IMG/VR virus record: IMGVR_UViG_3300021185_003351
Span: 96,001-160,000 of that record
DNA from: a virus
Strand: one strand, 5' to 3'
Length of the DNA: 64,000 nt
How positions within the stretch are numbered: position 1 is the stretch's first letter; each line of letters starts with the position of its first letter. Below, in pieces: positions 30,266 through 55,273 of this stretch. Under the pieces are notes generated by a model. That model was not told the origin of the DNA. It made no database searches and saw nothing but the letters and a program-made list of their open reading frames with translations. A program made the position numbers and the translations under genes.

Positions 30266-30268
30266 AAA

Positions 30269-32797: not shown

Positions 32798-33192
32798 TAG
32801 AATGTAATAAAGAATATTGGGAGTTTGTTAGAACTCTTCGAAATGATGATCAAGTACAAAACGGATTTATAGAGACTATAGAAATAACTTCAGAAATGCA
32901 AAATGCATATATGAATAAGTATAGTGACTGTTATAGAATTGCATTAATAGAAATACATACAGGAGACTCATTACATTTAGTGCCAGCTGGGTTTGTTGGA
33001 GTTATTGATGATGATATACGAGTATGCACCGTTCCAGAATTTCAAGGAATGGGTATTGGAAAGTTTATGATTAACGAATGTATGAAATTATGGCCCAATG
33101 CTTTTGCTAAAGTTAAAATTAATAATGAAGCTTCAAAAAAATTATTTAAAGCATGCGGATTTAAAGAAAAATTTATAATATTTGAACAATGA
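32788..33192 (+). CDS. GNAT N-acetyltransferase
   Basis: FQGMGIG, N.AS.KLF...GF. Confidence 0.8.
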   Translation: MELIECNKEYWEFVRTLRNDDQVQNGFIETIEITSEMQNAYMNKYSDCYRIALIEIHTGDSLHLVPAGFVGVIDDDIRVCTVPEFQGMGIGKFMINECMKLWPNAFAKVKINNEASKKLFKACGFKEKFIIFEQ

Positions 33193-33815
33193 TACATAAT
33201 CCTTATAAAATAGTAAAAATGTTCGAAGAAGAGTTGTCTAATTATACAAATGCTCCATATGTAGTTACAGTAGACAGTTGTACTAATGCATTATTCTTAG
33301 TATGTAAATATCTAAACGTTAAACAAGTAACAATACCATCAAAAACTTATTTATCAGTTCCACAATCAATTATTCATGCCGGTGGAGAAGTTATATTTGA
33401 TAAAAGAATAAAAACTAATCATTGGAGAGGAATATATCAATTAAAACCATATCCTATATATGACGCTGCAAAAAGATTTACATCTAATATGTATATTCCA
33501 AAATCATATATGTGTTTATCTTTTCATATTAAAAAACAATTGCCAATTTGGAAAGGAGGAGCTATATTATGTGATAATAAAGAAGCTTATGAATGGTTTA
33601 AACGAGCTAGATATGAAGGTAGAAGTGAAAAATATTATAAAGATGATGATATCGAATTTTTAGGATGGAATATGTATATGACTCCGCAACAAGCTGCACA
33701 TGGTTTAGCTATGATGCAAAATTATCCAATACATAAAGAAGATTTAGGCGAAATAAGCGGGTATCGAGATTTAACAAAATTTACAGTTTTTAAAAATAAT
33801 AAAGTTATAAAATAA
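33189..33815 (+). CDS. Short DegT/DnrJ/EryC1 sugar aminotransferase
   Basis: DSCTNAL, DAA, SFHIKK.L..KGG; only 208 aa. Confidence 0.75.
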   Translation: MIHNPYKIVKMFEEELSNYTNAPYVVTVDSCTNALFLVCKYLNVKQVTIPSKTYLSVPQSIIHAGGEVIFDKRIKTNHWRGIYQLKPYPIYDAAKRFTSNMYIPKSYMCLSFHIKKQLPIWKGGAILCDNKEAYEWFKRARYEGRSEKYYKDDDIEFLGWNMYMTPQQAAHGLAMMQNYPIHKEDLGEISGYRDLTKFTVFKNNKVIK

Positions 33816-34480
33816 TGAAAATAGCATTATGTTTATCAGGGTATTTTGATTCACTTACTGATTCTTCATCAAAAGGTATAGATGGGTATGATCATCTAGA
33901 GCGTCATGTATTTAGTAAAGGGGATGTAGACGTATATATTCATAGTTGGGATATAGAAAATGAACAACAAATTAAAAAACTATATAATCCCAAACATTCA
34001 GTATTTGAACAACAAATAGATTTTTCTGATATAATAAAAGAAAAAGGATATGATCAAATTCCTAATCCGCCAAGATCACCGCAAACTATTTATTCACACT
34101 TTTATTCTACATCTGAATCTTTTAAACATATTCAAGGTGAATATGATTGGATTATTAAAAGTAGATTTGATATTGGAAGAATTAATCGTAGAACATCTGG
34201 ACCACATAATCCTAATAATCCCTATCCAGTACAATGTATTAATTTTAATCCAACATTAGATCCAAATAAGTTATATATGGCTAATTGGCAATACTTAGAA
34301 AGTGATGGCCCTGCAGATATGTGGTTTTACGGAAGTCAAACTATAATGAAACCATTTGCATTTATATATGATAATATTGATAGATATTTTAAATGTAATG
34401 CAATACATTTATATAAAGAATTTATGATACAAAACAATTTATGGAATAATAAAGTAACATTGGATACAGTATGGGAGTAA
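33815..34480 (+). CDS. Glycan-locus protein (putative glycosyltransferase, KIALCLSG type)
   Basis: KIALCLSG, YIHSW, YD.IIKSRFD, D..FYG. Confidence 0.55.
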   Translation: MKIALCLSGYFDSLTDSSSKGIDGYDHLERHVFSKGDVDVYIHSWDIENEQQIKKLYNPKHSVFEQQIDFSDIIKEKGYDQIPNPPRSPQTIYSHFYSTSESFKHIQGEYDWIIKSRFDIGRINRRTSGPHNPNNPYPVQCINFNPTLDPNKLYMANWQYLESDGPADMWFYGSQTIMKPFAFIYDNIDRYFKCNAIHLYKEFMIQNNLWNNKVTLDTVWE

Positions 34481-35166
34481 AACCAGCAATAGTAATTTAT
34501 ACACATACAGACTATAGTGATATATGGACTCCTTTATTTTCACGTATAAAAAAATATATGAATTCATATAAAGTTAATATATTTGTTAATCAAGAACACG
34601 AATTAATACCAACAGAATATAATATTATAACGTATGATTCTAAATTAATTTATACAGAACGATTGAAATCATGCTTAGAACAATTAAAAGATGAACTTAT
34701 CTTATTTCTTCATGAAGACATGATATTATATGATGTACCATTACATGAAGAAATAAGTAGGTTATCAAAATTATTTGATTCAAATGATTTGAGTAGTATT
34801 AAGTTAATTTATGTAAAAGATGATGATTATCCTAGTTATGTAGATGACAAATTAATATATAATAATTCTTCAAAATTTTCTATACAGCCTACTATTACAA
34901 CAAAATCATATATGTTGGAATTAACTACAAAATATAAATTAAACATATGGGATTTCGAAGCAGCAATTGACAATTCAGGAAACGATTTTATGTATAAAAC
35001 CGGTAATGAAATTTTACGTGGAATGTATCATTGTGATAGTATAATATTTCCGTATATAGCAACCGCTATTGTAAAAGGTAAATGGAATGAAAGTGAATAT
35101 AAAAATGAATTAACTGATATATTTACTGAGTTTAATATTGATAAAACAATTCGTGGAGTAGTATGA
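34471..35166 (+). CDS. Putative GT-A-like protein
   Basis: LHED, QP, WDFE, KGKW. Confidence 0.5.
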   Translation: MGVKPAIVIYTHTDYSDIWTPLFSRIKKYMNSYKVNIFVNQEHELIPTEYNIITYDSKLIYTERLKSCLEQLKDELILFLHEDMILYDVPLHEEISRLSKLFDSNDLSSIKLIYVKDDDYPSYVDDKLIYNNSSKFSIQPTITTKSYMLELTTKYKLNIWDFEAAIDNSGNDFMYKTGNEILRGMYHCDSIIFPYIATAIVKGKWNESEYKNELTDIFTEFNIDKTIRGVV

Positions 35167-36527
35167 TAAAACTAATAATATTTGATTTAGATGGAGTTTT
35201 AGTAGAAGCTAAAAATATACATTATGATGCTTTAAATGAAGCATTAGGTGATAATTATTTTATTAGTTGGAGTGAACATTTATCTATATATGATGGATTA
35301 AAAACCAATCAAAAATTAGAAATATTAAGTGAAAGAAACGGATTACCAGAGACAAAACACACAGAAATATGGAATCATAAACAAAAAATAACATTAGAAA
35401 AATTAAAACAATTAAAACAAAATAATATTCTTATCAAATTAATGTCTAATTTAGTAGATAACGGATATAAAATTGCAGTTTGTTCTAATTCAATTAGAAA
35501 AACAGTATTAACAGTTTTATCGAAATTAGGTATTATGGAATTTATGGACTATATTATATCAAACGAAGATGTTGAAAATAGTAAGCCACACCCTGAAATG
35601 TATTGGAATGCTATTTCTAAAATGAAATGTTTGCCAGAAGAGACTCTCATTGTAGAAGATTCTCCATATGGACTATTGGCAGCTTCTAGATCTAAATCAC
35701 ATATATTACGAGTAAAAAACACAAAAGAGACTAATTTAAAAAATATAAATAATAAACTAAGGCAAATAGAAATGGGAGAACAACAAATTACGCCGGCTTG
35801 GAGAGATGAAACATTAAATGTTTTAATACCAATGGCTGGTGCTGGAAGTAGATTTCAACAAGCAGGATATACATTTCCTAAACCACTTATCGAAGTTAAA
35901 GGAAAGCCTATGATTCAAGTTGTAGTTGAAAATTTAAATATTAAAGCAAATTTTATTTATGTAGTACAAAAAGAACATAGAGAAAAATATAACTTAGACA
36001 CTTTACTTAATCTGATTACACCAAATTGTAAAATTGTTGAGGTAGATGGAATTACGGATGGAGCTGCGTGTACTGCATTATTAGCAAAAGAATACATTAA
36101 TTCTAAAAATCCTTTATTTTTTGCAAACTCTGATCAATTCGTAGAATGGGATTCAAATGAATTTTTATATAAAATGAATGAAACAAATGCAGATGGTGGT
36201 ATTGTATCATTTAAGGCAATACATCCTAAATGGAGTTTTGCAAAAGTAAATGAAATTGGATTAGTAACTGAAGTTGCAGAAAAAAATCCTATTTCAGATA
36301 TTGCTACAGTTGGATATTATTATTGGAAACATGGTTCTGATTTTGTAAAGTATGCAGAAGATATGATTGAGAAAGATATCAGAGTAAACAATGAGTTCTA
36401 TGTTTGTCCTGTTTTTAATCAAGCAATAAAAGATGGAAAAGAAATTCGTACCTTTGATATTCCTAAAATGTGGGGATTGGGTACACCAGAAGATTTAAAA
36501 TTTTATTTAGAAAATTATGGAAAATAA
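35163..36527 (+). CDS. HAD phosphatase fused to nucleotidyltransferase (BcbE-like)
   Basis: N-terminal FDLDGVL, KP.P, VEDS; C-terminal IPMAGAGSRF, PKPLI, NSDQ, LGTPEDL. Confidence 0.85.
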   Translation: MIKLIIFDLDGVLVEAKNIHYDALNEALGDNYFISWSEHLSIYDGLKTNQKLEILSERNGLPETKHTEIWNHKQKITLEKLKQLKQNNILIKLMSNLVDNGYKIAVCSNSIRKTVLTVLSKLGIMEFMDYIISNEDVENSKPHPEMYWNAISKMKCLPEETLIVEDSPYGLLAASRSKSHILRVKNTKETNLKNINNKLRQIEMGEQQITPAWRDETLNVLIPMAGAGSRFQQAGYTFPKPLIEVKGKPMIQVVVENLNIKANFIYVVQKEHREKYNLDTLLNLITPNCKIVEVDGITDGAACTALLAKEYINSKNPLFFANSDQFVEWDSNEFLYKMNETNADGGIVSFKAIHPKWSFAKVNEIGLVTEVAEKNPISDIATVGYYYWKHGSDFVKYAEDMIEKDIRVNNEFYVCPVFNQAIKDGKEIRTFDIPKMWGLGTPEDLKFYLENYGK

Positions 36528-37209
36528 TATATACACACAAATGCAAATAAGGACGTATGCTCCTGGAACCTCTAATCATGATGAACATAATACAAATCCA
36601 GATTATTGGGATATACTTTTATCAGATTTAAAAGATAAAAATTTATGGGAAGATAAAGTAGCTTTAGACTTTGCATGCGGAAAAGGCAGAAATGTAACTA
36701 ATATGTTATCTATATGTGATTGGAAACGTATTGATGGAATTGATATATCGCAATCTAATATTGATTTCTGTAATGATCAATATGATATAAAAATATATCC
36801 TAGCAATTGGTATTGTAATAATGGTACTGATGTGTCTAATTTAAAATCTAACGAATATGATTTTATTATGTCTACAATTGCACTACAACATATTCCTGTA
36901 TACGACATTAGAAAATCATTAATTACAGATTTATTAAGAACATTGAAGCCTGGCGGACTATTTTCATTTCAAATGGGATACGGTGAAGGATTAGATTCTC
37001 CAATTGGCCCTAGAAGTGCATATTATGATAATACATATGACGCCACTAATACTAATTCAGCACATGATGTTAGAGTACACAATGAACAAGATGTTATTGA
37101 AGATTTAAGTACGATAGGATATAATAATATAACAACTATTGTTAGACCTTCATATTCTGATAGTGGACATGAGAAATGGATTTATATAAAAGCATATAAA
37201 CCAATATGA
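36517..37209 (+). CDS. Class I SAM-dependent methyltransferase
   Basis: LDFACGKGR, GIDIS, LQH, LKPGG. Confidence 0.85.
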   Translation: MENNIYTQMQIRTYAPGTSNHDEHNTNPDYWDILLSDLKDKNLWEDKVALDFACGKGRNVTNMLSICDWKRIDGIDISQSNIDFCNDQYDIKIYPSNWYCNNGTDVSNLKSNEYDFIMSTIALQHIPVYDIRKSLITDLLRTLKPGGLFSFQMGYGEGLDSPIGPRSAYYDNTYDATNTNSAHDVRVHNEQDVIEDLSTIGYNNITTIVRPSYSDSGHEKWIYIKAYKPI

Positions 37210-37631
37210 TTTTAATATCACATAGAGGAAATATTTCTGGAAAGATATCAAACAAGGAAAATAGTCCAGAATATATAGTTTCAGCATTAACTAAAGGATA
37301 TAATGTTGAAATAGATGTTTGGTATGATAATGGATATTGGTTAGGTCATGATGAACCTATGTATAATATAGATAAAGATTTTTTACTAAATGATAAATTT
37401 TGGTGTCACGCAAAAAATGGAAAAGCTTTATATCATATGTTACAAGATGATATACATTGTTTTTGGCATCAAGATGATGATTTTACATTAACTTCCAATA
37501 ACTTTATTTGGACTTATCCTAATAAATTATTATATTATAATAGTATATGCGTATTACCAGAATTAGGTATTAATGGAGATATTGATATTTGCTCTGGAAT
37601 ATGTAGTGATTTTATTGAAAGATATTCATGA
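37206..37631 (+). CDS. Glycerophosphodiester phosphodiesterase-like protein
   Basis: ISHRGN, EN, VEIDV, LGHD, HAKN, GICSD. Confidence 0.75.
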   Translation: MILISHRGNISGKISNKENSPEYIVSALTKGYNVEIDVWYDNGYWLGHDEPMYNIDKDFLLNDKFWCHAKNGKALYHMLQDDIHCFWHQDDDFTLTSNNFIWTYPNKLLYYNSICVLPELGINGDIDICSGICSDFIERYS

Positions 37632-37846
37632 AAAATTTAAAATCAACAGTTAATGAGCAAGGCGAAACAGTTACTCAAATTATTCATTTTATTGATGGAG
37701 TTAAGAGAACATATCATGGTATTTTATCTGAAAGTATTAAACAAGGACAATTTACAAAAATGAAATGTAAAGATGGTACTATGCTAATGATAAATGATAA
37801 TAATGTTTTATGTATAGAAGTATTTAAAGAAGATGATAATAGGTAA
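37628..37846 (+). CDS. Hypothetical protein
   Basis: 72 aa, coupled. Confidence 0.55.
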   Translation: MKNLKSTVNEQGETVTQIIHFIDGVKRTYHGILSESIKQGQFTKMKCKDGTMLMINDNNVLCIEVFKEDDNR

Positions 37847-38342
37847 CGGCAGTATAGCGTCAGTTTTAAAAGAAATAGATACTCCAGATTTAATATTTTT
37901 TGCATCTGGTGTTAGTGATAGTTCTTGTACAGACGAATTTGAATATCAAAGAGAACGTAACTTAATGCTAACAGTCCCATATAATAAACATATAGTATAT
38001 TTTTCTAATTTAGGAGTCTACTATAAAAATGATAGATATACTCAACATAAAATAGATACTGAAGAATTTATTAGAAACAATTATAACAGTTATACTATTG
38101 TTCGAATCGAAGTTTGCGAATGGGTTTCAACACCAACTACAATATTAAATGTATTTAAAAATCAATTAAAAAATGATATCGAGCCAGTAATACATGATAC
38201 TACAAGATATGTTCTAAGTGTCAAAGAATTTTTATATTGGATATCATTAATAAAACCAAGCATAAAAAATGAAATGAATGTTTTAGGTAGAAAAATGAAA
38301 ATTTCAGAAATAGTTCAAGAAATAAAAGATAATAAACTATGA
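37833..38342 (+). CDS. Short NAD-dependent epimerase/dehydratase-like protein
   Basis: IIGNG.IA, FASGVS, YFS, Y..HK. Confidence 0.65.
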   Translation: MIIGNGSIASVLKEIDTPDLIFFASGVSDSSCTDEFEYQRERNLMLTVPYNKHIVYFSNLGVYYKNDRYTQHKIDTEEFIRNNYNSYTIVRIEVCEWVSTPTTILNVFKNQLKNDIEPVIHDTTRYVLSVKEFLYWISLIKPSIKNEMNVLGRKMKISEIVQEIKDNKL

Positions 38343-39256
38343 TAAATGTAAAGATACATTATTTAATTATGCCATGGCAAATTGATTATGCACAACAATC
38401 ATATATACAATTTAAAAAATCAAAGTATTATTTATCAGATGATGTTAATATTACAATTGATACTCATTTAAATCTTTCTAGTTTTATAATTGATTGGAAC
38501 AATACCAAAATTCCTAAACAATACTTTATAGATAAATTTAAAAGTTTAGAACCATTATTATCTGATTATACTCATAATTCAATAATATATGATGGACAAG
38601 ATAATTATGGATTGTTTGATATGCAAAAAGCTGCAATTGGTAATTATGATTATTATATACCAGTTTGTCCAGATATATATTTTTCAGAAACATTATTATA
38701 TTATTTAATTGAATCAGCTAGAATAGTCACAAATAAATATTTTGTTATAACGCCAGAAATTCCTAAAATGTGGGATGCATCATGGGATGTATTAACAAGT
38801 AAACAATATATTAATACAGACAGAAGTAGTTGGATAACTTCAGATATATTTGACATACGACATGATACTAAAACATTAAATAACGAAAGAAAATTAGATG
38901 TTGTTAATCAACACAAATGGGCTATATGGTTTGATTTATATAATAAAGAATTTTATGAAAATCTATGTCCATTACATGATGATTGGATAGGATATGGCCC
39001 ATGGGACTGGTATTCAAATATGTTATCGCAACATGCAAAGAATATAGGAGTTGATATGCAACAATTTGTTTTGCGTGGAGAAATAATTAGTGAATATCAA
39101 ACAGGTCCATTGCGGGATATTGGATTTGATGAACATTACAAAAAATATTTTAATATTAAAACTGGCGCTAAGAATCAAAGAGATTTATTTGAAAAAAATA
39201 TGAATTTACATTTAGAACGTGGTATGAATATGTTAAAAGAAAAGAATATTATATGA
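38339..39256 (+). CDS. Putative GT-A-like protein
   Basis: CPD, GYGPWD motifs; within the glycan locus. Confidence 0.5.
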   Translation: MINVKIHYLIMPWQIDYAQQSYIQFKKSKYYLSDDVNITIDTHLNLSSFIIDWNNTKIPKQYFIDKFKSLEPLLSDYTHNSIIYDGQDNYGLFDMQKAAIGNYDYYIPVCPDIYFSETLLYYLIESARIVTNKYFVITPEIPKMWDASWDVLTSKQYINTDRSSWITSDIFDIRHDTKTLNNERKLDVVNQHKWAIWFDLYNKEFYENLCPLHDDWIGYGPWDWYSNMLSQHAKNIGVDMQQFVLRGEIISEYQTGPLRDIGFDEHYKKYFNIKTGAKNQRDLFEKNMNLHLERGMNMLKEKNII

Positions 39257-40233
39257 AAATAGCATTCATAACAGAAATGGGATTTGAAGGTTATATTGAA
39301 CAATCACATCCTAATATGAGAACTGAATTTGCTTGGATGTATGCATTACATTCAAATCATATACCATTGTCTAAATATAATGAAGTATCTGATTATGATC
39401 ATGTATTTATAATATTTCCAAAAGGAAAATTAAATGTTAACGCTGAAGGAAGTGTTATTGGAAATCAATCTAATCCAGCATCTCACTACTTAAAATCTAA
39501 TCTTATTCAAAAATTAAAGTCATGTAATAAAAAAGTATATTATGTTCAAGAAGGACCAACCTGGTGGTTTACCGATTATGAAGTAGAAGATCAAATATTA
39601 TTTTATAACATGTTATCTTCTGTGGATGCTATATATGCTCACAATGAATATGATATGAAATTTTATCGAGGACTTATTCCAGGACAAAATGTTCAATGTA
39701 TTTCTACTTTAATGATTGAAGAATGGATACAAGAGATTGTTCCTCAGACAGAAAACAAAGTTTTAATTGGAGGAAATTTTGCTAGATGGTATAATGGATT
39801 TCAAAGTTATTTGGTTGCATCTGAGTTTGGAGTTCCAATATGGACTCAAGAATCTCATGCAAAAAGAATCAATGAGGATCAAATAGAAAATTTAAATCAT
39901 TTTCCTAGGATGTTGTGGAATCAATGGATGCAAGAAGTTTCTAAATTCAAATATGCAGTTCATTTAATGCCAACTATCGCTGCAGGAACATTTAGTTTAA
40001 ATTGTGCGTATTTTGGAATTCCTTGTATAGGAAATAACAATGTCGACACTCAAAAAATATGTCATCCAGAATTATGCGTCGACGTTGATGATATAGAATC
40101 AGCTAGACAATTAGCAATTCGATTACGAGATGATTCTGAATTTTATAAAAAGTGTAGCATGGAAGCAAATAAAAACTATAAACAATATTATAATATAAAA
40201 GCATGGAAGAAAAAAATATACGACACACTGTAA
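39253..40233 (+). CDS. Putative GT-B glycosyltransferase
   Basis: MKIAF start, AAGTFSLNCAYFGIPCIG. Confidence 0.6.
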   Translation: MKIAFITEMGFEGYIEQSHPNMRTEFAWMYALHSNHIPLSKYNEVSDYDHVFIIFPKGKLNVNAEGSVIGNQSNPASHYLKSNLIQKLKSCNKKVYYVQEGPTWWFTDYEVEDQILFYNMLSSVDAIYAHNEYDMKFYRGLIPGQNVQCISTLMIEEWIQEIVPQTENKVLIGGNFARWYNGFQSYLVASEFGVPIWTQESHAKRINEDQIENLNHFPRMLWNQWMQEVSKFKYAVHLMPTIAAGTFSLNCAYFGIPCIGNNNVDTQKICHPELCVDVDDIESARQLAIRLRDDSEFYKKCSMEANKNYKQYYNIKAWKKKIYDTL

Positions 40234-41258
40234 TAGTACCTAGTTATAATACTCTAGAGCATTTAAAAAATACATATAAAAGTTTACTGTTATATAGTAA
40301 CAATGTAGATATTATTTTAATTGATGATGCATCAAAAGATGGAACTGCAGAATGGTTTAAAACTATCAAAGAATTAAATGTTAAAACTATAGTTTCATCA
40401 ACTAGAAAAGGACATACATATTGGTATGATGAAGGTATGAGATTGTCAAAAACAGATATAGTTTCAATTTTACACTCAGATATGATAATAGGTCCATGTT
40501 ATTTTGAAAATATGTTACGTCATTTAGAACCCGGTCGAGTTGTTTGTTCTACAAGAATTGAACCTCCAATACATCCTGCAGGAAAAGAAAAGATTGTTAA
40601 AGATTTTGGTGATGAAGCTGACACTTTTAATTGGAATGCTTTTGAATCATTTTGTAATGAGGAACGAACATTAAAATTTGGTGAAACTACTAGAGGTATA
40701 TTTGCTCCATGGATGCTTTATAAGGAAGATCATCTATCGATCGGAGGACATGATCAAGGATTTGCACCATATGGGTATGAAGACTCTGATATATTCAATA
40801 GATGGATATTAGCTGGTTATGAAATGATACAAGCTCGTGATTCATTATGTTATCATATGACTTGTAGAGGACATCGATGGAATGCTGGTGTAGGAATAGA
40901 AAACTCAGATTATCAAGAAACTATGAATAATGGTCGTAGACATTTTTTAAAGAAATGGGGGCATTGGATTAAAAATGATGAATATCAATATCCAATTATT
41001 AGTCCCGTTTATAATAAAAAACTAATAATTAATAATATTAATTCAGGATTAGAACAATTAAAAGACTGGTTTAATGACGGAGAAGATATTATAGTTGAAA
41101 TTGACGGAACTACATTTACTCAACAAGATTTTCAATATATATCTAATCTAAATGATATCATAGCAGATAGTGGCGAAATTGGAACATTTGAGCTAGGAAA
41201 TATCAAAGTTACTATTAATAATATTAAAGATTACTCAAAAGACCTAATTTTTTTATAG
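40203..41258 (+). CDS. GT2 glycosyltransferase
   Basis: VPSYN, IDDAS.DGT, HSDM, GGHD, EDSD. Confidence 0.85.
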   Translation: MEEKNIRHTVIVPSYNTLEHLKNTYKSLLLYSNNVDIILIDDASKDGTAEWFKTIKELNVKTIVSSTRKGHTYWYDEGMRLSKTDIVSILHSDMIIGPCYFENMLRHLEPGRVVCSTRIEPPIHPAGKEKIVKDFGDEADTFNWNAFESFCNEERTLKFGETTRGIFAPWMLYKEDHLSIGGHDQGFAPYGYEDSDIFNRWILAGYEMIQARDSLCYHMTCRGHRWNAGVGIENSDYQETMNNGRRHFLKKWGHWIKNDEYQYPIISPVYNKKLIINNINSGLEQLKDWFNDGEDIIVEIDGTTFTQQDFQYISNLNDIIADSGEIGTFELGNIKVTINNIKDYSKDLIFL

Positions 41259-41274: not shown

Positions 41275-41283
41275 ATATTTATT
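41275..41283 (+). promoter_or_regulatory. ATATTTATT putative late promoter of the lysis operon
   Basis: One-mismatch copy of the recurrent 9-mer. Confidence 0.45.
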
Positions 41284-41297: not shown

Positions 41298-42215
41298 ATG
41301 TTATTAAAGAAAGGATCAAAAGGTCCAGAAGTTAAAAAACTACAAGAAGCATTAGGATTATCTGCAGATGGAATATTTGGTGGAGGTACTAAATTAGCTG
41401 TAATAAAATTTCAATCAAATAATGGATTAAATGCAGATGGTATAGTAGGACCTTCAACATGGGAAGTTATTGGTATCGATACAGATCAAACTAGTGCAGC
41501 AGAAGAATCAGAATATACAACTAAAGACGGTTTAGTTATAGATAGAGAATATCTAGATAAAGACGAATATGTAAGAGATTATGGTAAAATAGAACCATTA
41601 GGATTCTTTATTCATCACACTGCAGGATGGGATAATCCTTATAAAACAATACGTGGATGGAACCGAGATACAAGAGGTAGAGTAGCTACACAATATTGTA
41701 TTGGCGGCACTAATGTAAAAGGTAAAGCAGCACCCCATGACGGACAAGTAGTAGAATGTTTTCCAAATAACTATTTAGGATGGCATTTAGGTAAAGTAGG
41801 TGGATTTGATATTTCTAAATTTTCAGGAGGTGTTGAATTAAATAATTTTGGTTATTTAAAAAAGAAAGATGGTAAGTATTATACTTATGTTAACACGGAA
41901 GTAAAACCAGAATATGTTTGTGATTTAGGATATAAATTTAGAGGCCATCAATATTGGCACGCTTATTCCGACAAACAAATAGAAAGTTTAAGACTGCTTA
42001 TTTTACATTTAAAAGATATTTATCCTAAAATGGACTTAGAAAATGGTATTCCTAAAATGTTAAAAGAAGGAGTACACCCAAAAGAAGCATTTGAATTTAA
42101 TGAAGATGCTTATAATGCAAAACAATTTGGGTTATGGTCACACACATCTGTAAGAAAAGACAAGTTTGATTGTTTCCCTCAACCAGAATTAGTAGAAATG
42201 TTAAAAAATATATAA
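41298..42215 (+). CDS. Endolysin: peptidoglycan-binding domain + N-acetylmuramoyl-L-alanine amidase
   Basis: LKKGSKG..V..LQ..L, DGIFG..T, DGIVGP.TW; IHHTAG, WH, GVEL, H...KFD. Confidence 0.88.
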   Translation: MLLKKGSKGPEVKKLQEALGLSADGIFGGGTKLAVIKFQSNNGLNADGIVGPSTWEVIGIDTDQTSAAEESEYTTKDGLVIDREYLDKDEYVRDYGKIEPLGFFIHHTAGWDNPYKTIRGWNRDTRGRVATQYCIGGTNVKGKAAPHDGQVVECFPNNYLGWHLGKVGGFDISKFSGGVELNNFGYLKKKDGKYYTYVNTEVKPEYVCDLGYKFRGHQYWHAYSDKQIESLRLLILHLKDIYPKMDLENGIPKMLKEGVHPKEAFEFNEDAYNAKQFGLWSHTSVRKDKFDCFPQPELVEMLKNI

Positions 42216-42237: not shown

Positions 42238-42525
42238 ATGAATAAGTTACTTCTAAAATTAAGAAGGAAGATTATGGCCTTTAGAGACATGTTTAAAGAC
42301 GATAATGATATTAATGAGAAAAATGTAGTTGGATTTGCTGCATTTGCAGTAATGGTAATATTTGCAATTGCAGATATTGTTACTGGATATATGGGAGAAC
42401 CATTACATGTAAATGAATTCATATATAATTCGTTTTTATGGATTACCTTAGGTAGTTTTGGTATAGCTGAAGCCGGTAAGATATTAGGAAAATCAAACTC
42501 AGATGATGATCATGAAAATATTTAA
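42238..42525 (+). CDS. Putative holin (2 TM)
   Basis: Two hydrophobic helices directly after the endolysin; alternative ATG at 42274. Confidence 0.5.
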   Translation: MNKLLLKLRRKIMAFRDMFKDDNDINEKNVVGFAAFAVMVIFAIADIVTGYMGEPLHVNEFIYNSFLWITLGSFGIAEAGKILGKSNSDDDHENI

Positions 42526-45500
42526 GTATTTATTAATTACTCTATTTAGTCTTATTGTATACAATAGTAATGCCCAAAATTTAACATTCGGTTGCACAGA
42601 TCCAGCTGCAGCTAATTATGATCCAAATGCAGACCAACCATTAGAAGGATTAGTTGAAGCATCATCATGTAATTTTGTTTGGTTCCAAAATTATGTAGGA
42701 ATCAATGAAGCATTTTATAATGATTACAGTAGCGAATTTGCAGTTGGTACTAAAATTACATTTGCTGGACAAGAATATTGGATAGATGCTGTAGCATTTC
42801 ATAGCAATTGTAATGCTGGAGTAGCGTTAGTATATGTTGCTAATTCTCCTGGCCAAGCAGATGGCAATGAATGGACTATAGGTGGAATGCTTAACGGTCC
42901 TATCTTTTCAGGATCTCCATGGAGCATAACAGAATGTTTTTATAATCCTGGCTGTATGGATGATGATTATATAGAATATGATCCAAATGCAGATTGGGAT
43001 GATGGTAGTTGTCAAACTTTAAAAGTATTCGGATGTACAAATCCTAATTCTATTAATTATAATCCTTGGGCTAATACTGATGACGGTTCTTGTATAGCTG
43101 ATTTAAATTGTGGATTTGATTCAATAGAAATTAAAGTAACAATAAAAGTAGATAATTGGCCCGGCGAAACTAGTTGGTATTTACAACATACCAATCCAAC
43201 TCAAAATTTAACAGATACAGTTTTTTATGCTCAAAGAGGAACTTATGGTTGGGGACAACAAGGACAAACAATTGTAACTAAATTTTGCGCTCCAGCTGGT
43301 CCAAATCATTTATTACAATTTGTATTGCAAGATTCATATGGTGATGGTATAAGAGGTTCTCAACCACCAACTAATAGTGGATTTTGTTTAGTTGAAAATA
43401 TGTCTTGTCCGGATACTATATTTTATATGTCTGAAGGAGATGCCGATTTTGGTTATATAACTACTAGTGACCCAAATTATTGGAGTCAAAGAGAACAATA
43501 TTGCGGTGGACCTCTAATAGACGGATGCACAGATCCATCATATCAAGAATATGATTCATTAGCAACAAATAATGATGGCAGTTGTCAAAATCTTCATGTA
43601 TATGGTTGTATGGATACGTCGGCAATTAATTACAATCCTAATCATACTGCGTGGGATAATATTGAAACATGCGAATATAGAATTATATTAGAAGACGATG
43701 GTGGAGATGGTTGGGGAGAAAGCTTTGTTGGAATTAAACAAGGAGATTCTTTATGGGACTTTAGATTAGGTCCTGGTACATATGTAGATACATTTTATTT
43801 ACATTTTATAGTAGAAGATAATCCAAGCCTACAAGAAGAAGTTGAACTGTATTATTTTGAGATAGGTGACGGTCAACAAAATTCTCAACAAATAGATATT
43901 CAAACAATACAGAACTCAGTTAAAATAGAAAATGATTATGGTATTTTAATACATGAAGGAAATTTTCCATGGGCTAATGGCAATAAGCTCAAAAAGTTTA
44001 ATACTGTAGCAGATGTTTATACCGCAATACCATTTTGTGGGTATGTATGTACTCCTAAGATATATGGTTGTATGGACTCAACATCATTAAATTATAATCC
44101 AGACGCCAATGTTGATAATGGTACCTGTATTCCTATTATATATGGATGTACTAATCCATTAGCATTTAATTATGATTCAACTGCAACAATAGATGATGGA
44201 AGTTGTGTTGCCGTAGTAAATGGGTGCATGGATCCAAATGCATGGAACTATAATTCAAATGCTAACACAGATGATGGAAGCTGTATTTATCTAGGATGTA
44301 CAGATGTAACTGCTTGTAACTATGATTCAATAGCAAATGTTGATAATGGTGGTTGTATGTACCCTGCTCAATATTATGATTGCAATTACGTTTGTTTAGA
44401 AGACACAGATGGAGATGGTATTTGCGATTCATTAGAGATACCAGGATGTATGAATCCACTTTCAATAAATTATAATCCTAATGCAACTGATGACGATGGT
44501 TCATGTATACCTTATATATATGGTTGTACCGACTCAACCGCATTTAATTATAATCCATTGGCAAACACAGATGATGGTAGCTGTATTCCTATTGTAACGG
44601 GGTGTACAGACCCTACCATGTTCAATTATGATCCAAATGCTAACACAGATAATGGTAGTTGTATACCTATTGTATACGGTTGCACAGACCCAACATCATT
44701 TAATTATAATCCTAATGCTAACACAGATAATGGATCTTGCGTTCCATATATTTACGGCTGTATGGATTCAACTTCATTGAACTATGATCCAAATGCAAAT
44801 GTTGATAACGGAACTTGTATACCATTTATTTATGGTTGTATGGATAATACAATGTTTAATTATGATTCAACTGCAACTGTTGATAATGGCTCATGTATAC
44901 CATTTATTTATGGTTGTACTGATTCGACAGCATTTAACTATGATCCTTTAGCTAATACCGATAATGGAACTTGTATTCCTGTAATATATGGTTGTACAGA
45001 TCCAAGTGCATTTAATTATAATCCTTTAGCTAATACAGAAGATTTTAGTTGTATACCTGTAATATATGGTTGTACAGATTCATTAGCTGTAAATTATGAT
45101 CCTGCAGCAAATGTAGATAATGGTTCTTGTATAACTGCAGTTCCTGGTTGTACAGATCCAAATGCTTATAATTATAATCCTAATGCAAACGTTCCTGACT
45201 CAGCTTCATGTTTATATGATGCCGGTTGTATTACCGGACCAGGTAATCCATATTGGTTAAATGATGATTGCTATGCTTGGGTCATTAATATAGATCCTTA
45301 TTGTTGTACGGTAGGATGGGATGCGAATTGTCAAAACACATATGACTATTGTGCTGCTAATAGTGGATGGGTTGGTATTGAAGATTTGGTATATGATGGA
45401 GCAGTAGCAATTTATCCAAATCCAACCACCGGAGAAATAAATATAGCAAGTTCAAGATTTAAAAATATTATTGTAACTATATATTCAGTTTCCGGTCAGA

Positions 45501-45619
45501 TAGTTGTTAATGAAACAAATGATAATGTTATTGATATAAGTCACTTAGAAGATGGAGTTTATTTTATGAACGTGAAAGTAGGGGAATTAACTTATATTAG
45601 AAAGGTAATCAAACAATGA
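42512..45619 (+). CDS. Secreted Cys/Asp-rich repeat protein with T9SS type A C-terminal sorting domain
   Basis: Signal peptide ending SNA|Q; ~19 GC(T/M)DxxAxNYxxxAxxDxGSC repeats; C-terminus IYPNPT...IDISHLEDGVYFMNV...RKVIKQ. Confidence 0.85.
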   Translation: MKIFKYLLITLFSLIVYNSNAQNLTFGCTDPAAANYDPNADQPLEGLVEASSCNFVWFQNYVGINEAFYNDYSSEFAVGTKITFAGQEYWIDAVAFHSNCNAGVALVYVANSPGQADGNEWTIGGMLNGPIFSGSPWSITECFYNPGCMDDDYIEYDPNADWDDGSCQTLKVFGCTNPNSINYNPWANTDDGSCIADLNCGFDSIEIKVTIKVDNWPGETSWYLQHTNPTQNLTDTVFYAQRGTYGWGQQGQTIVTKFCAPAGPNHLLQFVLQDSYGDGIRGSQPPTNSGFCLVENMSCPDTIFYMSEGDADFGYITTSDPNYWSQREQYCGGPLIDGCTDPSYQEYDSLATNNDGSCQNLHVYGCMDTSAINYNPNHTAWDNIETCEYRIILEDDGGDGWGESFVGIKQGDSLWDFRLGPGTYVDTFYLHFIVEDNPSLQEEVELYYFEIGDGQQNSQQIDIQTIQNSVKIENDYGILIHEGNFPWANGNKLKKFNTVADVYTAIPFCGYVCTPKIYGCMDSTSLNYNPDANVDNGTCIPIIYGCTNPLAFNYDSTATIDDGSCVAVVNGCMDPNAWNYNSNANTDDGSCIYLGCTDVTACNYDSIANVDNGGCMYPAQYYDCNYVCLEDTDGDGICDSLEIPGCMNPLSINYNPNATDDDGSCIPYIYGCTDSTAFNYNPLANTDDGSCIPIVTGCTDPTMFNYDPNANTDNGSCIPIVYGCTDPTSFNYNPNANTDNGSCVPYIYGCMDSTSLNYDPNANVDNGTCIPFIYGCMDNTMFNYDSTATVDNGSCIPFIYGCTDSTAFNYDPLANTDNGTCIPVIYGCTDPSAFNYNPLANTEDFSCIPVIYGCTDSLAVNYDPAANVDNGSCITAVPGCTDPNAYNYNPNANVPDSASCLYDAGCITGPGNPYWLNDDCYAWVINIDPYCCTVGWDANCQNTYDYCAANSGWVGIEDLVYDGAVAIYPNPTTGEINIASSRFKNIIVTIYSVSGQIVVNETNDNVIDISHLEDGVYFMNVKVGELTYIRKVIKQ
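44066..45211 (+). repeat. Tandem ~78-bp (26-aa) coding repeats, about 14 copies
   Basis: Repeated GC(T/M)D...NY...A..D.G(S/T)C units; degenerate at the DNA level. Confidence 0.85.
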
Positions 45620-46740
45620 TTAGACATTTATTATTAATATTAACTTTAGTACCAACTATTTTATTTAGCCAATTCACAGTAACTACTAGTACTAAATCTT
45701 GGGATAAAGAAAAAGAAAAATGGAAGCCGTTTGAAGACTTTGACAAAAAATTTAAGAAGGCAATTAAATTTGCTACTTTCTATGGCGCATTTAATGGTAA
45801 CAATAGTATTGCAGATGTAGACGTATTTTCAGTTAATACAGGACAATTAATTACTAAAACAAATGAAACTCCATTTGATTATTCCATTGTAGCCGGCGTT
45901 AGAAAAATTGCAAGATTTGGATATGAAAATAGACAATCTGTATTTTATAATGGAACAGAACATTCGTATGCAGATGCAGCTACAATAGGTAAGGTATCTG
46001 GATTTGAATTTTTATTTGAAGTAGATTGGAAGCGAAGATTTGGAAATACCTTTTTAGATCAACAGCATTTTTTAAGATATGTAGCTGATCAATGGATTAT
46101 AAAAGTAGAATATATGCAGCAAGGTTTTGCTGATATAAAATATTTTGAGTCTTCACAAAGATATAGACAAAAAGTTGGAGATAAATTTTCTTGGAATATA
46201 GGTATAGTTCAAAGAATTTCAGAACCATATGGATATAATCCATTAGAAGAATTTATATTACCAAATGGTAGTTTACATTACACTTCATTAGCATTACAAG
46301 AAGGATATAATGTAGATTTTTTACCTGGAGGCGAAATAAATTATTTGAATCCAGAAGGAGAAGTAGTTGCAGATAATAGTATAATTTGGGAAGAAGTAGT
46401 TATACCTCAAGTATTATCTGATTATGTGGAAAGAAAGAAAAATGAAATACCACAACAATGGAATCATTCGTTGGTAATGGGATATGATTTTTATCATTAT
46501 ACTAAAACATTTTGGATACATTCTTGGGCAAGTGTAATGCCATTTCATTTAGAAACAGGTACTTATGCTTATCATAAATTTATAGCACCTAAGCAAACAT
46601 GGATAGACTTTGGTGGAGGATTCATTCTAGGAAATAGGATAAACAAACATTTAGGTATATTTATAGAGGGCAAGTATAACAAGTATTGGAATAGAAGATG
46701 GCATGATTTTAGTGTGGGATTGAATTACATAATTTTTTGA
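45616..46740 (+). CDS. Putative outer-membrane beta-barrel protein
   Basis: Signal peptide ending LFS|Q; aromatic alternating strands; C-terminal FSVGLNYIIF. Confidence 0.6.
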   Translation: MIRHLLLILTLVPTILFSQFTVTTSTKSWDKEKEKWKPFEDFDKKFKKAIKFATFYGAFNGNNSIADVDVFSVNTGQLITKTNETPFDYSIVAGVRKIARFGYENRQSVFYNGTEHSYADAATIGKVSGFEFLFEVDWKRRFGNTFLDQQHFLRYVADQWIIKVEYMQQGFADIKYFESSQRYRQKVGDKFSWNIGIVQRISEPYGYNPLEEFILPNGSLHYTSLALQEGYNVDFLPGGEINYLNPEGEVVADNSIIWEEVVIPQVLSDYVERKKNEIPQQWNHSLVMGYDFYHYTKTFWIHSWASVMPFHLETGTYAYHKFIAPKQTWIDFGGGFILGNRINKHLGIFIEGKYNKYWNRRWHDFSVGLNYIIF

Positions 46741-46748
46741 GAGATAAA

Positions 46749-47045
46749 ATGGCAACAGAATTAAATGAAGACACAGGTTTTAGAATAAGTATAAAAAGCT
46801 TAGTTGGAATAGGTGCCGGAATGGCAACAATTATTAGTATGTGGTTTGTATTACAAGCAGATATAGCAGAAGCAAAAGAGTTACCAGCACCTTTACCACC
46901 AGATGTTACTAGAATGGAATTTGATATGAAGGATCAATTGATTCGTCAAACAATTATGACTACACAAAAAGATGTAGAAGAAGTAAAAGAAGATATGAAA
47001 AGAATTGAGGAAAAGTTAGATAAGTTGATTGAAAAAAGGAGATAA
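46749..47045 (+). CDS. Single-TM protein with C-terminal coiled coil
   Basis: TM LVGIGAGMATIISMWFVL; heptads VEEVKEDMKRIEEKLDKL. Confidence 0.6.
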   Translation: MATELNEDTGFRISIKSLVGIGAGMATIISMWFVLQADIAEAKELPAPLPPDVTRMEFDMKDQLIRQTIMTTQKDVEEVKEDMKRIEEKLDKLIEKRR

Positions 47046-47047: not shown

Positions 47048-47374
47048 ATGAAAATGTTTTTAACAATAATAGGGTTATTTGTATCAACACTATGTTTTTC
47101 ACAAATACAAGTTATACAATTTAATGCAAATTGGAATAATGCTAATTCAGTAACTTGGTTAAATAAATTATCAGATTGTAAGACAGGTCAAGTAGACATT
47201 GTAACTGATAAAGCATCACAAGCAAAATATAAAATAATAGTAGTTCCGACCATAATAGTTTTCAACCAAGGCGAAGAAATAAAAAGATATCAAGCAAATA
47301 TCATGATGCAAATAGACGCCAAGTTAGAAGATATTCAAACAGTTGTAGATGAAACGGTAATGGAATCTTTCTAA
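47048..47374 (+). CDS. Secreted thioredoxin-fold protein lacking CxxC
   Basis: Signal peptide CFS|Q; FNANWNNAN in place of FxAxWCxxC; VPTIIVF..GEE..R. Confidence 0.7.
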   Translation: MKMFLTIIGLFVSTLCFSQIQVIQFNANWNNANSVTWLNKLSDCKTGQVDIVTDKASQAKYKIIVVPTIIVFNQGEEIKRYQANIMMQIDAKLEDIQTVVDETVMESF

Positions 47375-47829
47375 TGTATGAATATAAATGCACAGTAAAT
47401 AAAATAGTAGACGGAGATACGGTAGACGTAGATATAGATTTAGGATTTGGGATAGTACTAACTGACGAACGAGTTAGAATTATGGGAATCGATACTCCAG
47501 AATCAAGAACAAGAAATAAAATTGAAAAACTTTTTGGGTTAGCAGCAAAGAAACGATTAAAAGAACTTCTTTCAAAACATTGTGTTCTTAAAACAGAAAT
47601 CAATAAAGACGGCGAAGATATGAAAGGAAAGTTTGGAAGAGTACTAGGAGATTTTGTAGCAGCAGATGGTAGACTAGTAACTGACATAATGATAGAAGAA
47701 GGCCATGCAGTTGCATATCATGGGCAATCCAAAGATGACGTTCAAGTTGCACACTTAGAAAATAGAAAAAAATTATTAGCAGAAGGTATTATACTTCAAT
47801 CGGATATCAATAAAGTTTCAAAAAAATAG
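47374..47829 (+). CDS. Thermonuclease (SNase-like)
   Basis: VDGDTVD, R..GIDTPE, GKFGR.L, EGHA..Y. Confidence 0.88.
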   Translation: MYEYKCTVNKIVDGDTVDVDIDLGFGIVLTDERVRIMGIDTPESRTRNKIEKLFGLAAKKRLKELLSKHCVLKTEINKDGEDMKGKFGRVLGDFVAADGRLVTDIMIEEGHAVAYHGQSKDDVQVAHLENRKKLLAEGIILQSDINKVSKK

Positions 47830-47855
47830 GATATCTGTATATTTTTTCATATAAT
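47827..47855 (+). promoter_or_regulatory. TAGGAT-N17-TATAAT promoter
   Basis: One-mismatch variant, 17-nt spacer. Confidence 0.55.
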
Positions 47856-47862
47856 ATAATAT

Positions 47863-48210
47863 ATGAATTATCGACTAATAACATTTGCAATCATTTTATT
47901 TATAATAGGCCAAGGAATGGTTTGGATACAAGTTAATGGACCTCTAATATGGCCATGGGCTAAAAAATATAAATTATTACTATTATTATTTGGAATTCCA
48001 ATTACTTATTTGTTTATGGAAGCAACAAGATTTGCAGTAACTGGATTTGAAGGAATGTTTTGGCCCGGTAGATTTGTATCATTTGTTTCCGGAATCATGA
48101 TATTTACATTGTTTACATATATGTTTAAAGGAGAAGGCATAACATTGAAAACTGCAGTTTCGTTAACATTGGCATCGTGTATAATATTAATACAGTTATT
48201 TTGGAAATAA
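47863..48210 (+). CDS. 4-TM membrane protein (DMT/SMR-like)
   Basis: Four hydrophobic helices, F.GE..T.K motif. Confidence 0.55.
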   Translation: MNYRLITFAIILFIIGQGMVWIQVNGPLIWPWAKKYKLLLLLFGIPITYLFMEATRFAVTGFEGMFWPGRFVSFVSGIMIFTLFTYMFKGEGITLKTAVSLTLASCIILIQLFWK

Positions 48211-48212: not shown

Positions 48213-48221
48213 ATATTTATA
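48213..48221 (+). promoter_or_regulatory. ATATTTATA putative late promoter
   Basis: Recurrent 9-mer. Confidence 0.5.
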
Positions 48222-50796: not shown

Positions 50797-51171
50797 ATGA
50801 TTAAACTAAAAGACATACTAGAACAAGATTTTCCAGGACCATTTGGAAAGGAACATGATTATTCAGATTATGGAGGACCATGGGGTACAGGACATCATCA
50901 TAAGACAGATTTCAAAAAAGGACCTGGTAAGAATCCAACTGATTCAATTAGCTCTGATAGAGGAGAAGAAGAAAAGGAAGATGATGATGAAACCGGATAT
51001 AAAGCAGAAAATTTTGCAGACGGAAAAAATCCAGGCAGAAAAGGATTATCACAAAGAGTTGGAATACCAAAAAATGCTACTATAGCTCAATTAGAAAAAG
51101 CAGCGAAGGCAAAAGGTGAAAAGGGGAGATTAGCTCGATGGCAATTAAACATGAGACGAGGTAAAAAATGA
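50797..51171 (+). CDS. Hypothetical protein with MIKLKDILE leader
   Basis: Leader, acidic linker, basic C-terminal module. Confidence 0.55.
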   Translation: MIKLKDILEQDFPGPFGKEHDYSDYGGPWGTGHHHKTDFKKGPGKNPTDSISSDRGEEEKEDDDETGYKAENFADGKNPGRKGLSQRVGIPKNATIAQLEKAAKAKGEKGRLARWQLNMRRGKK

Positions 51172-54562: not shown

Positions 54563-55273
54563 ATGGCATTTCATCATTCACCGAGAATAGTATCAGACCA
54601 ACTAGTTTTTGCGTGGGATATTCCTAACAAAAAGTCATATCCTGGTTCTGGTACTTCCATAACAAATTTAATATCTGGTTCTGAAAATCTTATAATAAAT
54701 AATGCTACTATACAATCTGGTTCAGTAAATGGCAATGGATCTGTTGTAATGGATGGTGCTGGAGATTATTTATCTTTTTCTGCAACTACTTTTGCTGATA
54801 TAATAACTATTTCAATATGGCATAAAGCTAGAAGAAGTGATGGGACATCATCCGATCCGTACTCGTATGGATATTTGTTTGCAAATAGTTCAACAGGTCA
54901 AGGATTTGCATTTAGTGAAGGCGGAACATCTGGAAATATAGATCCTGGAATGTATTATTATTATCCTGGTGTTGGCGGAGGCGGAAGTTCAACCGCAATA
55001 TCAACAGCCGTTGGACAAAATAATGTATGGGGTAATGTTACAGCTGTAATTAACACAACAGCTAATCAAGTAAAATTTTATTTTAACGGAGTGTTAAATC
55101 AAACTACGTCGTTAACAATGAATAATACTAATACATATAATCAGTTAGGTAGATATCTAACTAACAATTGGTATATAATAGGAGAGTTAGCAGCATGTTA
55201 TGTTTATAACAAAGAATTATCAGCTGCAGAAGCTTTACAAAACTATAACGCATTAAAAGGGAGGTTCGAGTAA
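54563..55273 (+). CDS. LamG/concanavalin-A-like lectin protein 1
   Basis: IV...L...D....SYPGSGT, DG..DY, Y.NG, YN..LS..E..QNYNA...RF. Confidence 0.75.
   Translation: MAFHHSPRIVSDQLVFAWDIPNKKSYPGSGTSITNLISGSENLIINNATIQSGSVNGNGSVVMDGAGDYLSFSATTFADIITISIWHKARRSDGTSSDPYSYGYLFANSSTGQGFAFSEGGTSGNIDPGMYYYYPGVGGGGSSTAISTAVGQNNVWGNVTAVINTTANQVKFYFNGVLNQTTSLTMNNTNTYNQLGRYLTNNWYIIGELAACYVYNKELSAAEALQNYNALKGRFE

What the first reader, a model, noticed from the sequence alone, without database searches (positions are those of the whole stretch)
42512..45619. Phage-encoded cargo for the host type IX secretion system
Seen: a ~1035-aa protein with a Sec signal peptide, ~19 Cys/Asp-rich repeats, two globular inserts (DNWPGETSW...DSYGDG and EDDGGDGW), a DPYCC...WD..C module and a clear type A T9SS C-terminal domain (YPNP...G.Y...K..K). 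It lies directly after endolysin-holin, overlapping the holin, with phage genes on both sides. Established: such CTDs route proteins through the Bacteroidota T9SS to the cell surface. Inference: the phage uses the host T9SS to display a long, probably Ca2+/disulfide-stabilised stalked protein on infected cells. Possible roles are superinfection exclusion, aggregation with new hosts or particles, grazer avoidance, or blocking the T9SS/gliding machinery. I know of no characterised example in a lytic phage.
Basis: partly seen in the sequence, partly recalled or inferred. Interest (0 to 1): 0.88.

Follow-up and report, generated by a model that had tools for sequence, protein, structure and literature searches.

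The report
Phage T9SS cargo with envelope trio
A marine virus of flavobacteria encodes a long, enzyme-less stalk protein carrying the host's own export tag; in related phages it nearly always travels with three other phage envelope proteins, so the phage most likely re-surfaces the cell it infects late in infection.

Summary
Confirmed: a real 1035-1038-aa phage gene with a Sec signal, 19 two-cysteine repeats and a type A T9SS C-terminal domain above both HMM cut-offs. It is not a chimera: the identical protein occurs in independent assemblies, codon use is phage-like, and selection is purifying. The host is inferred to be a Flavobacteriales; the phage is an Immutovirus-like myovirus. The conserved partners are the three downstream genes rather than the lysis genes: a predicted 12-stranded outer-membrane barrel (PorV/SprF have 14), an inner-membrane coiled coil and a redox-dead exported thioredoxin. 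All four occur together in 44/44 full-flank loci across several phage lineages. The trio also occurs without any cargo, beside a holin, in small podoviruses, and complete relatives lack the cassette, so it is accessory. The cargo has host-type stalk modules without the host's enzyme heads, variable tips (CBM-like, MAM) and a conserved phage-specific cysteine module. Best reading: a late surface refit that guards or positions the infected cell (0.5). Main rival: a new outer-membrane lysis system (0.22). Phage-borne T9SS cargo was already reported computationally (Cryophage, Bellas 2020), and this scan found the same cassette before on other DNA. New variant of a known kind.

The parts
41275..41282 (+). 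ATATTTAT late-promoter-like motif heading the operon; the next copy that precedes a gene start is at 48213
   Evidence: 37 of 67 genomic copies lie within 80 bp of gene starts, including portal, sheath and tube genes
41298..42215 (+). Endolysin: PG_binding_1 + Amidase_2, 305 aa
42238..42525 (+). 95-aa (or 83-aa from 42274) membrane protein, holin candidate; the immuto homologue lies beside an endolysin and a separate annotated holin
42512..45619 (+). T9SS cargo gene, 1035 aa (1038 aa from ATG 42503)
42512..42574 (+). Sec/SPI signal peptide followed by Gln (Bacteroidota Q-rule)
   Evidence: 91/97 homologues show the pattern; rule in PMC10653852
42650..42943 (+). Variable distal domain D0, no family; other tips in homologues include CBM48/AMPK-CBM-like and MAM domains
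43115..43501 (+). D1 beta-sandwich (DNWPGETSW..DSYGDG), shared with host T9SS enzymes
43673..44047 (+). D2 beta-sandwich (DDGGDGW), one copy in all 97 complete homologues
44066..45211 (+). Stalk: 14 tandem 24-26-aa two-Cys repeats with a TSP3-like loop; 3-25 repeats per homologue
45209..45373 (+). D3 cysteine module (DPYCC..WD..C), the most conserved part of the cargo; in 401 Flavobacteriales genomes found only on a mis-binned phage contig
45410..45616 (+). Type A T9SS C-terminal domain
45616..46740 (+). 374-aa Sec-exported, predicted 12-stranded outer-membrane beta-barrel with a large helical insertion (inferred extracellular) and a conserved loop (inferred periplasmic); ATGA-coupled to the cargo
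46749..47045 (+). 98-aa single-TM protein with a Pro-rich hinge and a C-terminal coiled coil (type II inner-membrane topology inferred)
47048..47374 (+). 108-aa signal-peptide thioredoxin fold lacking CxxC
47374..48210 (+). SNase-family nuclease and a 115-aa multi-TM protein; loosely associated (23/80 and 14/80 loci)

Best explanation
The gene is the surface arm of an accessory, late-expressed four-gene envelope module of marine Bacteroidota phages. Shown from sequence: all four products are envelope-targeted, lie in one operon behind a motif shared with virion genes, and are co-inherited. Established pathway knowledge: a Sec signal plus a type A CTD sends a protein through the SprA translocon to the PorV shuttle, after which the CTD is removed. 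Inferred: the cargo becomes a disulfide-stapled stalk of adjustable length with swappable binding tips and no catalytic head. Its conserved D3 module sits at the base, next to the cleavage site. The phage's barrel, dead thioredoxin and inner-membrane coiled coil form a trans-envelope complex that the cargo works with. Most likely purpose (inferred): to re-surface the infected cell during virion assembly, so that competing phages are kept out or the cell is held on particles or new hosts until lysis. My odds for the steps: T9SS export 0.85; surface retention 0.6; same pathway as the trio 0.75; guarding against superinfection as the main purpose 0.35; adhesion as the main purpose 0.25.
For: CTD above cut-off; its profile matches solved T9SS CTDs (8glk_D E 6e-9, 8glj_D, gingipain CTDs). 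Purifying selection: dN/dS 0.08-0.30 for the CTD in nine relatives (one near-identical pair, dS 0.02, gave 0.54), 0.04-0.18 for D3, about 0.1 for the trio. The CTD is kept in 96/97 complete cargos, 11-17 aa after D3. Co-inheritance: 44/44 full-flank loci carry all four genes; 70/77 cargo-seeded loci carry the barrel and the other 7 are cut by contig ends; gene order is permuted yet the set stays together. It spans several phage lineages: only 5 of 15 near-complete carriers have a T4-like capsid. Host proteins built on the same D1+repeat stalk carry reprolysin, trypsin or lysyl-oxidase heads; the phage cargos scanned carry no enzyme domain but CBM-like or MAM tips. Accessory status: complete relatives G476, G481, G482 and isolated immuto phages lack the barrel, and G481/G482 carry a different, cohesin-type T9SS cargo. 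Late motif upstream of the operon.
Against: No experiment, expression data or isolate exists. The trio occurs without any cargo in a podovirus group of 130 loci (0 of the 80 examined has a CTD nearby), so the barrel did not evolve as a dedicated cargo anchor. In those podoviruses it lies within 1.5 kb of a GTA-type holin in 60/73 loci, which favours a lysis role. Type A CTDs normally use host PorV and need no cognate barrel (PMC12618676). The classic exclusion protein T5 Llp is a small early lipoprotein (PMC9586334), unlike this late module. D1/D2 fold matches are weak (Z <= 5.9).
Confidence: 0.5

Rival explanations
1. The trio is a new outer-membrane disruption system that works like a spanin: the TM coiled coil as inner-membrane arm, the dead thioredoxin as bridge and the barrel in place of the lipoprotein. 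The cargo is an add-on that tunes lysis timing or site.
For: Same late operon as the amidase and holin candidate. A GTA holin lies within 1.5 kb in 60/73 podovirus loci and the 95-aa gene is present in 44/77 cargo loci: two unrelated holin-like neighbours. A crude TM scan found no other spanin candidate in two complete podovirus genomes. 91/677 phages lacked identifiable spanins (PMC6139136). 3/38 coiled-coil members hit an Rz-like family weakly (best E 0.014).
Against: No lipoprotein in the trio. This genome and G484 also carry a separate TM-coil / signal-coil-TM gene (pair), of the type found in immuto's lysis cluster. Complete relatives lack the trio. A 1000-aa T9SS cargo has no place in membrane fusion, yet it is present in 44/44 full-flank loci of this group.
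Confidence: 0.22
2. The cargo acts on its own as an adhesin or released lectin that sticks infected cells or debris to particles and new hosts; linkage to the trio only reflects shared timing.
For: Swappable tips with CBM48-like and MAM domains; weak similarity of D1 to a Ca-dependent carbohydrate-binding module and to PLAT/C2 folds; unrelated T9SS cargos occur in related phages without the barrel.
Against: The D3-type cargo is essentially never seen without the trio, and the set survives reordering and transfer between phage lineages. 63/97 cargos have no substantial tip before D1.
Confidence: 0.15
3. The cargo is a decoy substrate that jams the host T9SS or gliding machinery (immobilising the cell or hiding a T9SS-dependent receptor).
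For: A true CTD would compete for SprA/PorV (established pathway); a cysteine-rich folded stalk could stall export.
Against: A bare CTD would do. The ectodomains D1 and D2 are under purifying selection (dN/dS 0.06-0.23) and the tips are diversified.
Confidence: 0.08
4. Assembly chimera or a recently captured, neutral host gene.
For: D1 and repeat modules occur in 151/301 Flavobacteriales genomes.
Against: Independent assemblies, phage-like GC3, 548 and 558 viral loci for barrel and cargo, purifying selection; D3 absent from the host genomes searched; the five full-length GTDB hits of the barrel lie on contigs with the cassette and mostly phage genes, in unrelated bins.
Confidence: 0.01

Closest known systems
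Cryophage T9SS type A cargo genes (Bellas et al. 2020, PMC7468147)
   Same: Bacteroidota phage genes ending in a type A T9SS CTD, variable between phage variants; superinfection exclusion or competition was proposed, untested.
   Different: Cryophage cargos are an endoglucanase, a GH39 and a PA14 protein in a 76-kb cryoconite phage. Here the cargo is a non-enzymatic cysteine-repeat stalk, bound to a conserved barrel/coiled-coil/thioredoxin trio in a late operon, in hundreds of marine phage contigs.
Type B CTD cargo with cognate PorP/SprF barrel (SprB-SprF, PG1035-PorP-PorE; PMC9143113, PMC12618676)
   Same: A repeat-rich T9SS cargo gene directly upstream of an outer-membrane barrel gene, with periplasmic partners.
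   Different: The CTD here is type A. The barrel is predicted with 12 strands, whereas PorV and PorP-like proteins are 14-stranded FadL-family barrels. The barrel also exists without cargo.
Two-component spanins (lambda Rz/Rz1; PMC6139136)
   Same: A type II inner-membrane coiled-coil protein plus an outer-membrane partner, late, near holin and endolysin genes.
   Different: No lipoprotein; the outer partner is an integral barrel and there is a third, thioredoxin-fold protein; a separate spanin-like gene pair coexists in this genome.
Phage T5 Llp / Cor superinfection-exclusion proteins (PMC9586334)
   Same: A lytic phage modifies the outer membrane of the cell it infects.
   Different: Those are single small early lipoproteins that block one receptor from the periplasm; this is a four-protein late module with a secreted stalk.
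Host T9SS enzymes of small-genome marine Flavobacteriales with D1 + cysteine repeats
   Same: Same beta-sandwich and repeat modules, with a type A CTD in two of the three scanned.
   Different: Host versions carry catalytic heads; D3 and the trio were not found in the host genomes searched, apart from one lone chromosomal barrel homologue.

Membership tests
T9SS type A cargo | N-terminal Sec signal peptide | tested here: met
   Hydrophobic N-terminus ending N-A then Gln; same pattern in 91/97 homologues. By hydropathy and pattern, not SignalP.
T9SS type A cargo | About 70-80-aa type A CTD at the extreme C-terminus, above curated cut-off | tested here: met
   TIGR04183 49.5 > 23 bits; PF18962 50.4 > 27 bits; residues 970-1038.
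T9SS type A cargo | Conserved motifs (YPNP, GxY, terminal K-x-x-K) under selection | tested here: met
   PNP, G and GxY invariant in 61 sequences; dN/dS mostly 0.08-0.30; matches solved CTDs.
T9SS type A cargo | Host has a T9SS | tested here: inconclusive
   Host not identified; inferred Flavobacteriales from capsid identity to Flavobacterium phage immuto (57%), Q-rule signals and shared modules.
T9SS type A cargo | SprA/PorV-dependent export with CTD cleavage | not testable with these tools
   Needs expression in wild-type and mutant hosts.
PorV / PorP-SprF shuttle (for the 374-aa barrel) | 14-stranded barrel | tested here: not met
   The AlphaFold2 model (pLDDT 75.5) has 12 long barrel strands; the family has 14 (PMC9143113). 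Prediction only.
PorV / PorP-SprF shuttle (for the 374-aa barrel) | Sequence or fold kinship to FadL-family shuttles | tested here: inconclusive
   No relevant Pfam/NCBIfam/PDB sequence hit. Best folds are 12-stranded: Tsx Z 14.6 (rmsd 4.0, 199 aligned), EstA beta-domain Z 13.5; a FadL homologue scores Z 8.2.
PorP-SprF shuttle system | Cognate cargo has a type B CTD | tested here: not met
   Only type A models hit the cargo.
Two-component spanin (trio) | Type II inner-membrane coiled-coil subunit | tested here: met
   98-aa protein with one N-terminal TM and a C-terminal coil; family hits are only weak.
Two-component spanin (trio) | Outer-membrane lipoprotein subunit with a lipobox | tested here: not met
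   Barrel and thioredoxin have SPI-type signals followed by Gln; no lipobox flagged in the genome scan.
Two-component spanin (trio) | Linkage to holin/endolysin genes | tested here: inconclusive
   60/73 podovirus loci beside a GTA holin; only 16/44 and 7/44 full-flank cargo-type loci have the 95-aa gene or the amidase.
Two-component spanin (trio) | Required for outer-membrane disruption | not testable with these tools
   Needs a complementation assay.
Redox-active thioredoxin (108-aa gene) | CxxC active site | tested here: not met
   Fold homology is clear (E 1e-9) but WCxxC is replaced across the family.
Holin (95-aa gene) | Small membrane protein beside an endolysin | tested here: met
   Beside the amidase here and beside an endolysin in immuto, G481 and G482.
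Holin (95-aa gene) | Match to a holin family or shown hole formation | tested here: inconclusive
   No hit in Pfam, NCBIfam or PHROGs; immuto has a second gene annotated as the holin.

The most novel reading that the evidence does not exclude
The barrel, dead thioredoxin and coiled coil are an undescribed phage-built trans-envelope machine, shared by unrelated marine myo- and podoviruses. In Bacteroidota phages it has recruited a T9SS-exported stalk as its outside arm, and it links an external cue (an arriving phage, a particle or a neighbouring host) to holin-controlled lysis, or disrupts the outer membrane by a route other than spanins.
Probability: 0.25. Interest if true: 0.88.

Novelty: new variant of a known kind. 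Interest (0 to 1): 0.64.

Why it matters
The cassette shows that use of the host type IX secretion system by phages is not a curiosity of one cryoconite phage. It is a conserved, selected feature of several lineages of marine Bacteroidota phages, and at least two unrelated cargo types are used. I found no paper on the associated 12-stranded barrel family (3,724 clusters at 90% identity; viral in the Atlas). If the module guards or positions infected cells, it adds a new mode of phage control over flavobacteria, which are major degraders of marine organic matter. If the trio lyses the outer membrane, it answers how some spanin-less phages escape. Both readings can be tested in Flavobacterium johnsoniae with existing T9SS mutants.

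Tried and rejected
No full-length cargo, barrel or coiled-coil homologue in 50,697 GenBank phage records; the CTD alone hit two unannotated metagenomic records. No PDB sequence hit for the barrel. The earlier-note lead that the 26-aa repeat resembles the perforin-2 hinge was not recovered by a single-sequence PDB search; it was not tested structurally. D1/D2 fold searches gave only generic beta-sandwiches (Z <= 5.9; C2/PLAT/CBM-like), and D2 and the repeats were barely tested. Sigma-70 promoter and terminator scans were at chance level. No Rz family (PF03245) match over cut-off and no tyrosine integrase in the genome. D1 versus D2 pairwise alignment was not significant. PorV/SprF, by name, did not appear among the top fold matches of the barrel, which does not exclude kinship. 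I rejected the idea that the barrel is a dedicated cargo shuttle because it occurs without cargo. Virion incorporation was rejected because all four proteins carry membrane-targeting signals. Locus counts are of contigs, many of them near-duplicates, not independent events; loci were seeded by exact peptide patterns and lean towards close relatives.
Full report
1. Observation. The ORF is real: 42503..45619, 1038 aa, or 1035 aa from the likelier ATG at 42512. It has a signal peptide followed by Gln, 19 two-cysteine repeats and 57 Cys. A type A CTD at residues 970-1038 passes the TIGR04183 and PF18962 cut-offs, and the family profile matches solved T9SS CTDs. It is the only CTD in the 172,973-bp viral record. 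The identical protein is found on four contigs, one a 172,929-bp independent assembly with the same neighbours, and GC3 equals the phage mean. A chimera is excluded.

2. The phage. The genome encodes a T4-like terminase, portal, protease, capsid, sheath and tube. The capsid protein is 57% identical to Flavobacterium phage immuto. No tyrosine integrase was found. Exported proteins follow the Bacteroidota Q-rule (PMC10653852). A Flavobacteriales host and a lytic cycle are inferences.

3. Cargo anatomy. From tip to base: a variable domain D0, two beta-sandwiches D1 and D2 (model pLDDT 84; only generic fold matches), a stalk of 14 tandem repeats, the cysteine module D3 and the CTD. In 97 complete homologues the length is 654-1413 aa, the repeat count 3-25, D2 is single-copy and the CTD lies 11-17 aa after D3 in 96 (D3 was the selection criterion). 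Tips of 80 aa or more fall into four unrelated clusters; other homologues carry CBM-like or MAM domains. D1 and the repeats occur in 151/301 Flavobacteriales genomes, most richly in 1-2 Mb assemblies, where three examples carry lysyl-oxidase, reprolysin or trypsin heads. The phage cargos scanned have no catalytic domain. D3 was found in none of 400 other Flavobacteriales genomes and is the most constrained segment (dN/dS 0.04-0.18; CTD mostly 0.08-0.30).

4. The real partners. The next gene encodes a 374-aa exported protein with relatives at 548 viral loci. It is predicted to be a 12-stranded outer-membrane barrel, closest in shape to Tsx and autotransporter beta-domains, with viral-only Atlas neighbours. 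From strand order I infer that the large helical insertion faces outward and the conserved RKxARFxYE loop faces the periplasm. It is followed by a single-TM coiled-coil protein and an exported thioredoxin fold without CxxC. All four genes are present in 44/44 loci with full flanks; 70/77 cargo-seeded loci have the barrel and the rest are cut by contig ends. Order is permuted, and only 5 of 15 near-complete carriers have a T4-like capsid, so the set is shared by different phage lineages. The amidase (7/44) and the 95-aa gene (16/44; 44/77 in cargo-seeded loci) are looser neighbours. The five full-length GTDB hits lie in unrelated bins on contigs that carry the cassette and mostly phage genes. 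One lone chromosomal barrel homologue was found in 400 Flavobacteriales genomes.

5. The trio stands alone elsewhere. Distant barrels led to a group of roughly 35-70-kb podoviruses (130 loci) in which coiled coil, thioredoxin and barrel occur without any CTD protein: 0/80 loci, and none of the near-complete podovirus records has a match over cut-off. A GTA-type holin follows within 1.5 kb in 60/73. So the trio is an autonomous module and the cargo is an addition in one large group.

6. Accessory and late. The motif ATATTTAT precedes portal, sheath and tube genes and also the amidase at 41275; the next gene-proximal copy is at 48213, so amidase, 95-aa gene, cargo, trio, nuclease and a membrane protein probably form one late operon (inference). 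Complete related myoviruses G476, G481, G482 and the immuto isolates lack the barrel. G481 and G482 instead carry cohesin-domain T9SS cargo in another exported-protein cluster, in G482 just upstream of the lysis genes. Immuto's lysis cluster holds the 95-aa homologue, an endolysin, a separate holin and a TM-coil / signal-coil-TM pair; this genome has a pair of the same architecture upstream of its terminase. The trio is therefore not needed for lysis across the family, although in the two complete podoviruses inspected no other spanin candidate was seen.

7. Mechanism. Shown: targeting signals, co-inheritance, selection. Established: type A CTDs are recognised by PorV after export (PMC12618676) and can be linked to A-LPS (PMC9143113). 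Inferred: the cargo is displayed as a stalk and works with a trans-envelope trio to re-surface the infected cell late in infection, most plausibly to exclude competing phage or to hold the cell where progeny will find hosts (0.5). Rivals: new outer-membrane lysis system (0.22), stand-alone adhesin (0.15), T9SS jam (0.08), artefact (0.01).

8. Comparison and novelty. Phage-encoded type A T9SS cargo was reported for Cryophage, with the same speculation about exclusion (PMC7468147); I found that paper by my own search. The protein meets the sequence criteria for a type A cargo. The barrel fails the 14-strand and type B criteria for PorP/SprF shuttles, and the trio fails the lipoprotein criterion for spanins, though it may work like either. 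I found no paper on the four-gene cassette. Earlier notes of this scan describe the same cassette in other genomes; they are unchecked AI notes and are not counted as support. Verdict: new variant of a known kind, interest 0.64.

Noticed in passing
L368:3969-10262 (G482) and L369:3175-8830 (G481): Related complete myoviruses without the barrel carry a different exported-protein cluster that includes cohesin-domain proteins with a type A T9SS CTD; in G482 it lies directly upstream of the 95-aa homologue, endolysin and holin. G484 (L371) has both this cluster and the trio.
   Followed up: partly
L272:9379-10593: A lone homologue of the phage barrel sits in a bacterial chromosome context (next to prs-, rplY- and pth-like genes) in one Flavobacteriales assembly, without coiled coil, thioredoxin or cargo.
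   Followed up: partly
L095:112-1200: A distant barrel homologue is encoded with TGA read as Trp, which points to a host with a recoded stop codon.
   Followed up: no
L090:9-706 (genome 43508-44205, outside the window): A TM + Lys-rich coil gene and a signal + coil + C-terminal TM gene lie just upstream of the terminase; immuto has a pair of the same architecture in its lysis cluster. Candidate Bacteroidota-type spanin pair with no family hit.
   Followed up: partly
window 26860-41258: A long run of glycosyltransferase-like and sugar-modifying genes ends right before the amidase and starts behind the same ATATTTAT motif; it could also serve surface or virion glycosylation.
   Followed up: no
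window 54563-56642 and genome about 65.4-82.1 kb: Many paralogous 220-246-aa genes with similar C-termini; the two called in L002 hit Laminin_G_3.
   Followed up: no
window 1328-2023, 50797-51171 and genome 103-6148: Numerous unrelated-looking ORFs share an N-terminal MIKLK[DN][IL]L motif.
   Followed up: no
L084-L088: Phage-like contigs carrying the cassette are binned in GTDB genomes of Nitrosopelagicus, Sphingobacteriales, Parvibaculum, Flavobacteriales and Rickettsiales; these could produce false claims of T9SS cargo in non-Bacteroidota.
   Followed up: yes
P0124, P0128, P0140, P0142, P0146, P0174, P0254: Seven of 17 distant barrels have an EF-hand-like DxDxDG-type motif, mostly in the large insertion, suggesting calcium binding on the outer face.
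   Followed up: partly
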